Positions 60,265 to 63,295 of a stretch of 64,000 nt of DNA are shown piece by piece. Every line of letters begins with the position of its first letter. The stretch's first letter is position 1. Made by a program: the position numbers and the translations under genes. Source of the stretch: a bacterium (GTDB lineage: Bacteria; UBA8248); assembly GCA_965203325.1 (NCBI GenBank), contig OZ241875.1, positions 1,472,001-1,536,000 on the forward strand. Reading direction: 5' to 3'. The notes under the pieces were generated by a model, which did not search any database, was not told the origin of the DNA, and saw nothing but the letters and a program-made list of their open reading frames with translations.

Positions 60265-60386
60265 TTCTGCTCTTTCCCTGATGTCTGTCGTAGCGGGCGA
60301 ACACGTGACCATACGCCTCAAAGGATATACCACTCCCCGCCAAACCCCTCAAGCGATGTTCATGCCGCCCGTTTTCGTGGGGGTTT

Positions 60387-60411
60387 GTAGGGGCCGCATA
60401 TATGCGGCCCT
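60387..60411. repeat. GTAG-type REP palindrome
   Basis: GTAGGGGCCGCATATATGCGGCCC. Confidence 0.85.
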
Positions 60412-60584
60412 TGCGGGTCGGATCGTCAAGCCGTCGTAAAACCCATCCAGGAATTGCGCCGTTAGACGGGACGGAACTATCAATGGCGAAAACCACTCTG
60501 CGCGGGACGATGGGATGGACGCCTCCTTCCGGCAGTTTAGAATGTGGCGAGGTAACGTCACACACCGCCCGGAAGGAGACGACC

Positions 60585-61610
60585 ATGGAAGGAGTCTACA
60601 TCATCGGCATCGATCTGGCGAAGAACAGTTTTCAACTCCACGGGGCGCGGGCGGACGGTTCGGTCGCGTACCGCAGGAAGCTGACGCGCGCGAAGGTGCT
60701 GGGCTTTCTGGCCTCGCAGCCGCGTTGCGTGGTGGCGATGGAGGCGTGCGCGGGGGCGCACCATTGGGGCCGGGCGCTCGGTCGTCTCGGCCACGAGGTG
60801 AAGCTGCTGCCGCCGGCCTACGTGAAGCCCTACGTGAAGCGCCACAAGAACGACGCGGCGGACGCGGAGGCGATTAGCGAGGCGGCCACTCGCCCGACGA
60901 TACGTCCGGTGGCGGTAAAGAGCGAGGAACAGCAGACGCACGGGATGCTGTACCGGGCGCGCGATTTGCTGGTGGGTCACCGGACCCGGACGATCAACGC
61001 CTTGCGGAGTCATCTGGCGGAGTTCGGGGTCGTCGCGCGTCAGGGGCCCGTTGGCCTCACGAGATTGGTGGTTGCGGTTCGGGGAGCGGAATCGGGTCTG
61101 CCCGAGGCGGTCCGGGAGCTGGGCGAGGTTCTGCTGGAGGAGATCGCCGGCCTGAAGGCGAAGATAGAGGAGTTGGAGAGGCGGCTGTGCGCGAGCGTCC
61201 GCGATGACGAGGAGGCGCAGCGGCTGATGAGCATTCCGGGGGTCGGGCCGATAACGGCGTCGGCGATCCGGGCGTTCGCGCCGCCGATGGAGAACTTCCG
61301 TCGGGGCCGGGACTTCTCGGCCTGGCTGGGTCTGGTCCCCCGGCAGCACACCACGGGGGGCAAGCCCCGCCTGGGGCGGATATCGAAGATGGGCCAGCGC
61401 GACGTGAGGCGGCTGTTGATCATGTGCGCGATGTCGGTGATTCGCCAGGCCGTTCGGCGCGGCGCGCCGCGGGGTTCGTGGCTGGCCCGGATGCTGGCGC
61501 GCAAGCCTCGTATGCTCGTCGCGGTGGCGCTGGCCAACAAGATGGCGCGCATCGCGTGGGCGCTGCTGCGGAACAAGGAGTTCTACAGGGAACCGGCGCC
61601 CCTCGCCTGA
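60585..61610 (+). CDS. IS110 family DEDD recombinase/transposase
   Basis: IGIDLAK, AMEAC, KNDAADA, SIPGVG, LGLVPRQHTTGGK, VALANK. Confidence 0.95.
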   Translation: MEGVYIIGIDLAKNSFQLHGARADGSVAYRRKLTRAKVLGFLASQPRCVVAMEACAGAHHWGRALGRLGHEVKLLPPAYVKPYVKRHKNDAADAEAISEAATRPTIRPVAVKSEEQQTHGMLYRARDLLVGHRTRTINALRSHLAEFGVVARQGPVGLTRLVVAVRGAESGLPEAVRELGEVLLEEIAGLKAKIEELERRLCASVRDDEEAQRLMSIPGVGPITASAIRAFAPPMENFRRGRDFSAWLGLVPRQHTTGGKPRLGRISKMGQRDVRRLLIMCAMSVIRQAVRRGAPRGSWLARMLARKPRMLVAVALANKMARIAWALLRNKEFYREPAPLA

Positions 61611-61870
61611 GCGGCGCGCGGATAGAGTCGGGAGGAATGTGAGCCGGTCGGAGGAAGGGTAAGGGCAAACGGTCATCGAGACGGGATCGGGGCAACCAGG
61701 TACATGCGACGAGCGAACCACCGAGCTCGCCGGGACGATTCGGACCCGATCCGCGCATCTCCATACGGGCCCGCGGCCAGCATGAAGCGCCGCAACGAAG
61801 AGGCCGAATGTACGACTGAGCCGAACCGCTTTGCGCCGAACCCTCCAAAAAACCGCTTGCATTCCAAGGG
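61611..61870 (+). ncRNA. Putative bridge/seek RNA region of the IS110 element
   Basis: About 270-nt 3' non-coding region with stems enclosing segments that match the target (TACATGCG, CGGGACG) and the element end (ATGTACG); RNA boundaries unknown. Confidence 0.75.
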
Positions 61871-61976
61871 GGCGTCCATGTACGCATATATGCGTCCCCT
61901 ACACAATTCGTATATACCGAACCAAATAAGCCATAAATGTTAGTTAAAAAGGCACGGCAAAGTGTTCTCCACACAC

Positions 61977-62007
61977 AAAAAAACCGGGGGGCCGAAGCCC
62001 CCCGGTT
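61977..62007 (-). terminator. Intrinsic terminator of the porin gene
   Basis: Minus strand AACCGGGGG-cttcgg-CCCCCCGGTTTTTTT. Confidence 0.8.
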
Positions 62008-62047
62008 GTCGTCGCGTCAGGTGAGGACGCGAGCGTCCTTCATGCTG

Positions 62048-63295
62048 CTAGAAGATGTGGCGCAGCGTCCAGCCGACCGCCCAGCCGTCGTCGATCTCCG
62101 GGCCATCAACCGCTCTGCCGTAATCGCCGCGCAGGATAACGGCGCCCACACCGCGAAGCTCGAGGTTCGAGTGGATCTTCCACTTGAAGGCGGCGTTGAG
62201 CTCTGTGCCGAATTCCTTCGCGTCCATCGTGTTCGGTGCGAGGGAAGGCTCTGCGGAATTGTAGAGGGATACACCGCCGCCCAGCGTCAGGGTCTTGCTG
62301 ACCTTGAAGTCGGCCAGCCCCTCGATCACGGTCGCGCCGTTCAAGGCGCCCAGGTGCACGCTTCTGATGCCGTTGCCCAGAGTCGTCCAGCGGCGCGAAG
62401 TCATAATGTGGCCGCCGAAGAACCAGCCGGAACCGCCTTCCTGAGGCGTCCTGAACCGGCCGTCCTCACCGGCCCTGGCACCGTCATTGCCGGAGAGCAT
62501 CGTGAGGTTGCCGCTCAGCTTCAGTTTGCCCAGACTCGTGGAAGTCCTCACCAGAACGGCCCAACCCGAGAGCTCATCGCCGGGTTCGCGGGGATCATCG
62601 CTCGAGAGGTCACCTTCCTGGATGACCATAGAACCGTTCACGTTGAGGATGCCTACCTTGGTCTTGACGTGGATGCCGAGGAAGCTGTAGTCGTAGCCGC
62701 CGAGCACCGCGTCCCTGGAGTTGGCCGCCCACGGTGTAACCGTTAGCGTCGGGTTCACCTTGATGCCCACGCCGACGTAGTAATCCGTCTTGTCGTCGTT
62801 TTCGGCGCTGGTATCTTCCTTCGACTTGGTCATGAACGCGCTGAGCGACATGTTCTTGCTGAGCTTACCGTAGATCGCAATGCCCGGTTCACGGGAACGA
62901 CCGCTGCTGTCGTAGATTTCCTTGTCCGGCGAGAAATAGTCCGTCCGGCCCATACGCATGCGGAGCGCGCTGCCCGGAACGGCGAAGTCGATCACCCAGC
63001 GGTTGACGCCGACAGTCTGCCGGCCGGGACCGATTGAGAAGCCGCCGTTCGCGCTTACGAATTCGGGCTCCCACACGGCCGTGACGGCGCCGCTTTTCGC
63101 CGTGAAGCGCGGGCGGATGAGCGCGTCCAGGTAATTACTCTTGTCATTTACGTCATCGTTTCCGTCTTTGTTGACGTTTTCGCTGGATCCGCGCACTCGG
63201 AAGAAGCCGCTGAACTTGAGGTCGGCCGCGTACGAGGGCGCTACAAACGTCGCCAAGAGCGCCAGCGCAAATAGAGTTAACAGAATTTTCCTCAT
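62048..63295 (-). CDS. Outer-membrane beta-barrel/porin-like protein
   Basis: Signal peptide (SYA-A), alternating amphipathic strands, GTELNA..KW, terminal Phe. Confidence 0.75.
   Translation of the reverse strand: MRKILLTLFALALLATFVAPSYAADLKFSGFFRVRGSSENVNKDGNDDVNDKSNYLDALIRPRFTAKSGAVTAVWEPEFVSANGGFSIGPGRQTVGVNRWVIDFAVPGSALRMRMGRTDYFSPDKEIYDSSGRSREPGIAIYGKLSKNMSLSAFMTKSKEDTSAENDDKTDYYVGVGIKVNPTLTVTPWAANSRDAVLGGYDYSFLGIHVKTKVGILNVNGSMVIQEGDLSSDDPREPGDELSGWAVLVRTSTSLGKLKLSGNLTMLSGNDGARAGEDGRFRTPQEGGSGWFFGGHIMTSRRWTTLGNGIRSVHLGALNGATVIEGLADFKVSKTLTLGGGVSLYNSAEPSLAPNTMDAKEFGTELNAAFKWKIHSNLELRGVGAVILRGDYGRAVDGPEIDDGWAVGWTLRHIF

What the first reader, a model, noticed from the sequence alone, without database searches (positions are those of the whole stretch)
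61680..61820. Readable bridge/seek-RNA guides: target and donor loops in the IS 3' non-coding region
Seen: the outer stem GGATCGGG (61684-61691)/CCCGATCC (61745-61752) encloses TACATGCG (61701-61708; complementary to target right half CGCATATA with one mismatch), an inner CGAGC/GCTCG hairpin, and CGGGACG (61731-61737; identical to the target left half). A second loop has CCATACG (61761-61767; imperfect complement of the left end CGATGG), a GGCC..GGCC-closed stem, and ATGTACG (61808-61814; identical to the element right end 61878-61884). Established: IS110 bridge RNAs and IS1111 seekRNAs use paired guide loops. Inference: a complete RNA-guided recombinase programmed against this genome's REP family, and a candidate programmable tool.
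Basis: partly seen in the sequence, partly recalled or inferred. Interest (0 to 1): 0.85.

Follow-up and report, generated by a model that had tools for sequence, protein, structure and literature searches.

The report
IS1111-type insertion sequence with guide RNA
This is an intact, recently active insertion sequence of a known RNA-guided kind, and its readable guide segments match the repeat it sits in and its own ends, so it is a well-supported but ordinary new member.

Summary
The region is the 3' non-coding region of a 1375-bp IS1111-group (IS110-family) element, window 60510-61884. It has an intact 341-aa DEDD transposase, 9-bp sub-terminal inverted repeats, and a second identical copy in the same REP site. 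A metatranscriptome-library contig shows the empty site. Across 68 distinct homologous non-coding regions the stems covary. In 33 non-redundant elements the 3' target segment equals the left flank and the 5' target segment complements the right flank. The 3' donor segment equals the right end (0 of 10000 permutations each). The fourth segment, CCATACG, is nearly invariant and pairs with only ATGG of the left end. It may instead be a scaffold helix. Guide order matches published IS1111 seekRNAs. The guide reads a rare REP allele and carries one mismatch to both insertion sites. No direct proof of the RNA was obtained. Verdict: interpretation supported; a new member of a known kind; moderate-to-low interest.

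The parts
60510..61884 (+). Whole IS1111-group element, 1375 bp. The core ACG/CG is shared by the left flank and the right end, so the limits could equally be written 60507-61881.
   Evidence: The identical second copy shares window 60504-61903. A contig in run X20 joins 60506 to 61882, skipping 1375 bases with 3 ambiguous letters.
60503..60509 (+). Left half of the target plus core (CGGGA+CG), part of a REP arm
   Evidence: Copy B has AGGGACG.
60515..60523 (+). Left sub-terminal inverted repeat, ATGGACGCC
   Evidence: Inverted-repeat search. It is 9 bp here and 11-14 bp in relatives.
60585..61610 (+). Transposase gene, 341 aa, DEDD/RuvC-like plus Transposase_20 domains; carries GLVPRQHTTG (the GL-P----TG motif)
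   Evidence: Pfam PF01548 and PF02371. NCBIfam NF033542, 326.9 bits against a cut-off of 140. Aligns to IS621 and ISCro4 transposases.
61630..61830 (+). Conserved scaffold of the presumed long seekRNA. The ends are approximate.
   Evidence: Alignments; alifold.
61684..61752 (+). Target-binding stem-loop: outer stem 61684-91/61745-52, 3-bp stem 61696-98/61741-43, inner hairpin 61710-14/61725-29
   Evidence: RNAalifold. Pair counts: helix 2 is 93.9% paired with 6 of 8 pairs changed on both sides; helix 4 has 4 of 4.
61701..61708 (+). 5' target guide UACAUGCG. It pairs with top-strand CG+CATATA with one A.C mismatch at 61703.
   Evidence: These are the most variable columns. Relatives L012 and L015 match CATGTA flanks perfectly. 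61703 is T in contigs of 4 runs.
61731..61737 (+). 3' target guide CGGGACG. It is identical to the left flank plus core and pairs with the bottom strand.
   Evidence: 7/7 here. The family mean is 6.09/7 against 2.86 for other elements' flanks.
61758..61767 (+). Putative 5' donor guide (..CUCCAUACG). CCAU pairs with ATGG of the left end. Alternatively it is one strand of a helix with 61659-61664.
   Evidence: Weak covariation (4.58 against 4.09; 1 of 10000 permutations). The alternative helix is seen.
61768..61805 (+). GGCC/GGCC stem closing a GCGGC/GCCGC hairpin (61773-77/61789-93)
   Evidence: 100% paired but invariant. The inner hairpin has 3 pairs changed on both sides.
61808..61814 (+). 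3' donor guide AUGUACG, identical to the last 7 nt of the right end
   Evidence: 7/7 here. 37 of 41 loci are 7/7 across 10 distinct guides.
61857..61862 (+). TTGCAT, a -35-like hexamer. After circle formation it would face TACG|AT across the junction.
   Evidence: Conserved (C)TTGC at a fixed distance in 33 distinct junction reconstructions. Inference only.
61871..61879 (+). Right sub-terminal inverted repeat, GGCGTCCAT
61885..61903 (+). Right half of the target: CATATATGCGTCCCCTACA (REP arm)
   Evidence: Shared by both copies. REP census.

Best explanation
Window 60510-61884 is an intact, recently mobile IS1111-group (IS110-family) insertion sequence. Its 274-bp region downstream of the transposase gene encodes a structured guide RNA (seekRNA/bridge RNA) read from the + strand. 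In the first stem-loop, UACAUGCG (61701-08) pairs with the top strand of the target (core CG + CATATA). CGGGACG (61731-37) pairs with the bottom strand (CGGGA + core CG). The two overlap at the core, which fixes both position and orientation in a REP. In the second module, AUGUACG (61808-14) reads the element's right end plus core. CCAU (61761-64) probably reads ATGG of the left end at the circle junction. The DEDD transposase bound to this RNA would exchange strands at the shared CG. Shown here: element anatomy, two identical copies, an empty site, stem covariation, and guide-flank and guide-end covariation. Inferred from the published family: that the RNA is made, is bound by the transposase and is needed for movement, and that a junction promoter exists.
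For: Protein: PF01548 and PF02371; NF033542 'IS110 family RNA-guided transposase' at 326.9 bits; aligns to IS621 and ISCro4. Element: 2 identical copies in GGGACG|CATATATGCGTCCCCTACA; an empty-site contig skipping 1375 bases; 9-bp sub-terminal repeats. RNA structure: 68 distinct homologues, 93.1% of cells paired, 18 of 29 pairs changed on both sides, 0 of 500 shuffles reach this, and slid controls give 20-44%. G.U pairs number 62 against 20 A.C, which favours a + strand RNA. Guides were tested on 33 non-redundant elements. These come from 41 usable loci, out of 47 with ends called, out of 79. The 3' target guide matches the left flank at 6.09/7 against 2.86 for other elements' flanks. The 5' target guide's longest complementary run is 6.15 against 3.01. 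The 3' donor guide matches the right end at 6.88/7 against 5.22. Each gives 0 of 10000 permutations, and the result holds with all 47 rows kept. There are 29 distinct 3' target guides, and 22 match their own flank at 6/7 or better. Close relatives differ in the guide at the REP's polymorphic base: A here, C in L012, T in L015. Guide order (top-strand complement 5' of bottom-strand complement, overlapping in the target) is as published for IS1111 seekRNAs (PMC11187229, Results). Contigs from RNA libraries in 3 runs of 2 studies cover the non-coding region.
Against: No direct evidence that the RNA exists or binds the protein. Contigs from RNA libraries cannot show strand or ends and may hold DNA. 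No Rfam family matched at E<=10. The 5' target guide has an A.C mismatch to both occupied sites, and the sequence it would match perfectly (GGGACGCATGTA) occurs 0 times in the genome. One site identical to copy B's 13-nt target is unoccupied (2973803). The 5' donor segment is almost invariant and matches only 4 nt of this left end. The GGCC stem never varies, so it carries no covariation evidence. Six rows were dropped after inspection because their ends were miscalled; one search shows this does not change the result.
Confidence: 0.9

Rival explanations
1. Only the first stem-loop is a working guide, as with the short seekRNA that is sufficient for ISEc11. The second module is not a donor-binding loop. 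On this view the 7-mer equal to the right end is a DNA-level feature, such as a transposase-binding direct repeat or a leftover of end duplication, and CCAUAC is a scaffold helix.
For: Siddiquee et al. report that the 70-100-nt seekRNA suffices and that the role of the long form is not established (PMC11187229, Discussion). CCAUAC pairs with GUAAGG (61659-64) in 63-77 of 77 sequences. The GGCC stem is invariant. L013 carries a tandem duplication running from the guide-coding 7-mer to the right end, so this DNA can itself recombine.
Against: The 3' donor segment tracks the right end through 10 distinct variants, with 37 of 41 loci perfect. The core base (CG or TG) co-varies between the 3' target and 3' donor segments. 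The clade with left end ATGC has GCAU in place of CCAU. Durrant et al. predict donor loops in IS1111 members (PMC11208160, passages).
Confidence: 0.12
2. The guide acts as single-stranded DNA of the element, not as RNA. Folded sub-terminal DNA would pair with the target, as in IS200/IS605-type elements.
For: Sequence covariation alone cannot distinguish RNA-DNA pairing from DNA-DNA pairing.
Against: The protein is a DEDD IS110-family enzyme, not a HUH transposase. Stems tolerate G.U far more than A.C (62 against 20), which fits an RNA of the + strand. Published relatives co-purify with RNA from the non-coding region (PMC11187229).
Confidence: 0.03
3. The matches are chance in a GC-rich region and the element picks REPs through its protein.
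For: CGGGACG alone arises in 11% of shuffles. The MFE is unremarkable.
Against: All three matches occur together in 0 of 20000 shuffles. The family-wide permutation tests give 0 of 10000.
Confidence: 0.01

Closest known systems
IS1111-family seekRNA elements ISEc11, ISPa11 and ISKpn4 (Siddiquee et al. 2024, PMC11187229)
   Same: A DEDD transposase of about 340 aa with the GL-P----S/TG motif, sub-terminal inverted repeats, and a long non-coding region downstream of the gene. Two target-matching segments overlap at the insertion point, with the top-strand complement on the 5' side. The target is a REP, as for ISPa11. A -35-like hexamer in the right end faces the circle junction.
   Different: It is an unnamed element. 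No experiment was done here. The right guide mismatches its own sites by one base.
IS621 bridge RNA (Durrant et al. 2024, PMC11208160; structure entry 8wt6)
   Same: Two-loop logic, with a target loop and a donor loop that each read both strands around a shared core. The transposase is homologous (E 3.5e-12 over residues 175-330).
   Different: In IS621 the RNA lies upstream of the gene. The order of the guide segments is reversed (per PMC11187229). Here there are long sub-terminal repeats rather than 2-3 bp, and the catalytic Ser position holds Thr.
IS5075 / IS4321 (annotated IS1111-family members on enterobacterial plasmids)
   Same: 41.6-41.9% aa identity over 98% of the protein. By my own reading of L105, IS5075 also carries in its 3' region a copy of its right-end letters (ATAGATTC), and short matches to its flanks in the same 5'-to-3' order.
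   Different: The non-coding regions are not alignable. The target is different (transposon ends, recalled from the literature) rather than a REP.
ISPpu9 / ISPpu10 of Pseudomonas putida (PMC12288879, passages read)
   Same: IS110-family elements that insert in REPs. That genome also holds unlinked copies of an IS-associated small-RNA gene.
   Different: Those are IS110-group elements without sub-terminal repeats. Ssr9 is not the guide and is not required for their movement.

Membership tests
IS1111 group of the IS110 family | DEDD (RuvC-like) N-terminal domain plus the Transposase_20 C-terminal domain | tested here: met
   PF01548 E 3.8e-15; PF02371 E 1.3e-24. NF033542 at 326.9 bits against a cut-off of 140.
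IS1111 group of the IS110 family | GL-P----S(t)G motif and transposase length of 330-350 aa (PMC11187229) | tested here: met
   GLVPRQHTTG in the translation. 341 aa. Aligned to the equivalent IS621 stretch.
IS1111 group of the IS110 family | Sub-terminal inverted repeats of 7-17 bp, set in from the ends | tested here: met
   ATGGACGCC / GGCGTCCAT, 9 bp. With CG assigned to the left end, the extensions are 7 nt on the left and 3 nt on the right.
IS1111 group of the IS110 family | The long non-coding region lies downstream of the transposase gene and the left end is short | tested here: met
   274 bp downstream against 75 bp upstream.
IS1111 group of the IS110 family | Site- and orientation-specific insertion without target duplication | tested here: met
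   2 of 2 copies are in the same sequence and orientation. The empty-site contig skips exactly the element.
IS1111 group of the IS110 family | A circular intermediate with a junction promoter | not testable with these tools
   Only a conserved TTGC(A) at fixed spacing from the junction. No circle-junction contig was seen.
seekRNA / bridge RNA | A conserved secondary structure supported by compensatory changes | tested here: met
   18 of 29 pairs changed on both sides; 0 of 500 shuffles reach the observed values.
seekRNA / bridge RNA | [quoted passage not shown] | tested here: met
seekRNA / bridge RNA | Donor-loop segments matching both element ends | tested here: inconclusive
   The 3' segment is clearly met. 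The 5' segment matches only 4 nt here and shows weak covariation, with an alternative helix available.
seekRNA / bridge RNA | The RNA is transcribed, bound by the transposase and required for movement | not testable with these tools
   Contigs from RNA libraries cover the region in 3 runs of 2 studies, but they cannot show strand or ends or exclude DNA.

The most novel reading that the evidence does not exclude
Elsewhere in this genome, fragments of the same kind of guide-RNA region have been detached from any transposase. They flank an intact, multi-copy 350-aa protein of no known family, whose model resembles restriction-endonuclease-like folds. The layout mirrors an IS1111 element with its transposase replaced: an end-like repeat, the gene, then the start of the non-coding region. 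The boldest reading not excluded is that these units are moved in trans by the window's transposase and RNA, or that the protein itself uses the RNA module. The upstream end-like motif shares its last 11 letters with the window element's right end.
Probability: 0.06. Interest if true: 0.75.

Novelty: new member of a known kind. Interest (0 to 1): 0.33.

Why it matters
It adds one well-documented natural example to the RNA-guided IS110/IS1111 recombinases. The family set assembled here has 29 distinct target guides and 10 distinct donor guides, each with its cognate flanks. It shows single-base retargeting at the polymorphic position of a REP (A, C or T in three close relatives). It also shows an element tolerating one A.C mismatch four bases from the core. 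That is useful raw material for rules on mismatch tolerance and for the unsettled role of the long seekRNA. It does not change what is known about the mechanism.

Tried and rejected
- Rfam at E<=10 on 60300-62100 gave no family in the non-coding region. The weak Xoo2, sraA and sX2 rows lie on the porin terminator at 61977-62077.
- Single-sequence MFE is not special (z = -0.35).
- A local hairpin 61671-74/61680-83 is paired in only 50.7% of cells. A long-range helix (alignment columns 10-14 with 172-176) reaches 75%. Neither is firm, and the helix is poor in this element itself.
- A sigma-70 scan found only one + strand site, in the left end, and none just before the RNA.
- blastn of the transposase gene against E. 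coli genomes found no match.
- In the RNA-library runs most of the transposase body had no contig. This shows nothing, because contigs cannot show absence.
- For the 350-aa side protein: no Pfam or PADLOC hit; the Atlas gave only unnamed clusters; Foldseek PDB gave nothing at E<=0.001. The wide search gave PaqCI at Z 8.9 and many nuclease-fold rows at Z 5-8, a range the tool calls common. Within the phylum it was found in 2 of 51 genomes searched.
- The neighbouring ORFs of that unit gave only an HTH_17 hit.

Full report
**Observation.** Every string and coordinate in the finding is correct.
- The outer stem GGATCGGG (61684-61691) / CCCGATCC (61745-61752) encloses TACATGCG (61701-61708), a CGAGC/GCTCG hairpin (61710-14/61725-29) and CGGGACG (61731-61737).
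- Further on lie CCATACG (61761-67), a GGCC/GGCC stem (61768-71/61802-05) and ATGTACG (61808-14), which repeats the element's last seven letters (61878-84).
- In 20000 dinucleotide-preserving shuffles of 61611-61870, CGGGACG arose in 2214, ATGTACG in 113 and the right-half complement with at most one mismatch in 705. All three arose together in none.
- The minimum free energy of the region is unremarkable (z = -0.35).
- No Rfam family matches it at E<=10.

**What the element is.**
- The ORF 60585-61610 encodes a 341-aa protein with Pfam DEDD_Tnp_IS110 and Transposase_20.
- It scores 326.9 bits on NCBIfam NF033542, 'IS110 family RNA-guided transposase', against a cut-off of 140.
- It aligns to the IS621 and ISCro4 transposases of solved structures.
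- It carries GLVPRQHTTG, which is the GL-P----S(t)G motif that Siddiquee et al. describe for IS1111 transposases (PMC11187229, Results).
- A second, 100%-identical copy lies at G000:C1:20510-21909. Identity between the copies spans window 60504-61903, that is GGGACG + element + CATATATGCGTCCCCTACA.
- These are the only two full-length IS110-family transposase genes in the genome.
- The element is therefore 60510-61884, 1375 bp. ACG is shared between the left flank and the right end.
- It has 9-bp sub-terminal inverted repeats ATGGACGCC/GGCGTCCAT, 75 bp upstream of the gene and 274 bp downstream.
- A contig from a metatranscriptome library (X20, record 16) joins 60506 to 61882, skipping exactly 1375 bases with three ambiguous letters. 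This is the empty site in another strain.
- All IS1111-group features that could be tested are met.

**Comparative test of the RNA.** A scan of genome contigs returned 80 loci encoding relatives at 49-85% aa identity.
- Their downstream regions align over a conserved scaffold.
- In one search, 93.1% of cells are paired and 18 of 29 pairs changed on both sides. None of 500 shuffles reach the observed values, and slid controls give 20-44% paired.
- The GGCC stem is invariant, so it neither gains nor loses support.
- G.U pairs outnumber A.C by 62 to 20, which is expected for an RNA of the + strand.
- Column entropy peaks exactly at 61700-61708 and 61731-61736, inside an otherwise conserved scaffold.

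**Guides against flanks and ends.**
- Ends could be called from the inverted repeats in 47 of 79 loci.
- I dropped six rows after inspection because the repeat or the register was plainly miscalled (L014, L074, L052, L054, L065, L072). That left 41 loci and 33 non-redundant guide pairs.
- The 3' target segment matches its own left flank at a mean of 6.09 of 7, against 2.86 for other elements' flanks.
- The 5' target segment has a mean longest complementary run of 6.15 to its own core plus right flank, against 3.01.
- The 3' donor segment matches its own right end at 6.88 of 7, against 5.22.
- Each of these gave 0 of 10000 permutations.
- The 5' donor segment is weak: 4.58 against 4.09, with 1 of 10000 permutations.
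- Keeping all 47 rows (37 non-redundant) gives the same picture.
- There are 29 distinct 3' target guides, of which 22 match a cognate flank at 6/7 or better. There are 10 distinct 3' donor guides, and 37 of 41 loci are perfect.
- Flanks are host DNA in different genomes, so shared descent of the element does not explain these matches.
- The core (CG or TG) co-varies between the 3' target and 3' donor segments, as a shared crossover requires.
- The order is the one reported for IS1111 seekRNAs and reversed relative to IS110: the top-strand complement lies 5' of the bottom-strand complement, and the two overlap in the target (PMC11187229, abstract and Results).

**This element in detail.**
- The target is CGGGA-CG-CATATA. 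The 3' guide matches 7/7 in the window copy and 6/7 in copy B, whose flank is AGGGACG.
- The 5' guide specifies CG-CATGTA, so both occupied sites carry an A.C mismatch at 61703.
- Relatives L012 and L015 have the same 5' guide and sit in CATGTATG flanks. In contigs of all four runs laid, 61703 reads T, which would match CATATA.
- The genome's REP family is GGG[C/T]CGCAT[A/G]TATGCG[G/A]CCCCTAC, with about 60 perfect palindromes.
- GGGACGCATATA occurs only at the two occupied sites (read on the opposite strand) and at one chimeric empty site, 2973804. GGGACGCATGTA occurs nowhere.
- Eight REP sites lie one mismatch from the guide-specified 13-mer. These are CGGGTCGCATGTA six times and CGGGCCGCATGTA twice, and all are unoccupied.
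- The three closest elements differ in the guide at the REP's variable base: A here, C in L012, T in L015. Contigs show C (X20) and T (X19) at 61735.
- 'Programmed against the REP family' should therefore read 'against one rare allele of it'.

**The fourth segment.**
- CCATAC is nearly invariant in the family, as is GATGG at the left end.
- In the one clade whose left end begins ATGC, the segment reads GCAT.
- In this element only ATGG, plus a possible U.G wobble at the next base, can pair.
- An alifold of 77 longer sequences instead pairs CCAUAC (61761-66) with GUAAGG (61659-64), in 63-77 of 77 sequences.
- I cannot decide between a donor guide, a scaffold helix, or both in turn.

**Expression.**
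- No sigma-70-like site lies just upstream of the RNA. One lies in the left end at 60516-60543.
- TTGCAT (61857-62) is conserved as (C)TTGC at a fixed distance from the end in 33 distinct reconstructed junctions. After circle formation it would face TACG|AT.
- This fits the junction promoter described for the family (PMC11187229; PMC12288879, passages), but it is inference.
- Contigs from RNA libraries in three runs of two studies cover the non-coding region: X19 record 12 at 61615-61843, X20 record 22 at 61575-61894, and X18 record 5. They are 90-99% alike to the window and may derive from relatives or from DNA.

**Comparison and novelty.**
- Durrant et al. predicted bridge RNAs in the right end of 93.0% of IS1111 elements and inspected ISPa11, ISCARN28 and ISAzs32 (PMC11208160, passages).
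- Siddiquee et al. showed experimentally that the RNAs of ISEc11, ISPa11 and ISKpn4 bind the transposase, are essential and can be reprogrammed.
- The nearest annotated named relatives are IS5075 and IS4321 at 41.6-41.9% aa identity. By my reading, IS5075's 3' region shows the same logic.
- The finding is a correct reading of a new member of a known kind.
- The supplements of these papers were not opened. Supplementary Table 5 of Durrant et al. may already list close relatives.

**Side observation.**
- Four transposase-less copies of the non-coding-region scaffold exist elsewhere in the genome.
- Three of them lie on the opposite strand just upstream of an intact 350-aa gene. That gene is present three times here and twice in one congener. 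It was not found in the other 38 relatives searched.
- A fourth, complete copy with a right end follows one of these genes.
- The protein has 260 unnamed homologues and no Pfam or PADLOC hit.
- Its model has mean pLDDT 81.5. Its best matches are restriction-endonuclease-like folds at modest scores: PaqCI at Z 8.9, rmsd 3.7, 135 aligned.
- Two of the copies sit in a repeat of at least 3.7 kb.
- This was only partly followed up.

Noticed in passing
G000:C1:3861124-3862760 (L004/L092); also G000:C1:1997899-1998945 (-) and 4228091-4229137 (+): An intact 350-aa gene of no known family sits where a transposase would be. Its model weakly resembles restriction-endonuclease-like folds. Upstream is an end-like repeat (GGTGTCCATGTACG on the opposite strand) next to an inverted target-loop-like module. 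Downstream of the stop is the start of an IS1111-type non-coding region. One copy keeps a whole such region plus a right end. There are three copies here and two in one congener.
   Followed up: partly
window 60385-60410 and genome-wide: A REP family, GGG[C/T]CGCAT[A/G]TATGCG[G/A]CCCCTAC, with about 60 perfect palindromes, often in pairs. The A/T allele hit by the IS has no uninterrupted full copy in the genome.
   Followed up: yes
L013:2500-2900 (relative, 80% aa identity): The stretch from the 3' donor-guide 7-mer to the right end is tandemly duplicated: the right end is followed by ACTGAGCCGAACC... and then a second right end. It looks as if the guide-coding DNA, which mimics the end, had itself recombined.
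   Followed up: no
window 61733-61801: One contig from an RNA library (X18, record 5) joins 61732 to 61802. It lacks 69 bases, comprising the 3' strand of the target-loop stem and the first half of the second module. It may be a deletion variant in a relative.
   Followed up: no
window 60516-60543 and the left ends of relatives: A promoter-like TGGACG-16-TAGAAT lies inside the left end. Relatives instead conserve a small GGCA..TGCC hairpin in the 5' untranslated region ahead of a GGAGG ribosome-binding site.
   Followed up: no
window 61977-62077 (- strand): A strong intrinsic terminator (AACCGGGGGGCTTCGGCCCCCCGGTT + T run) follows the 415-aa outer-membrane-like ORF at 62048-63295. It accounts for the weak Rfam sRNA rows.
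   Followed up: no
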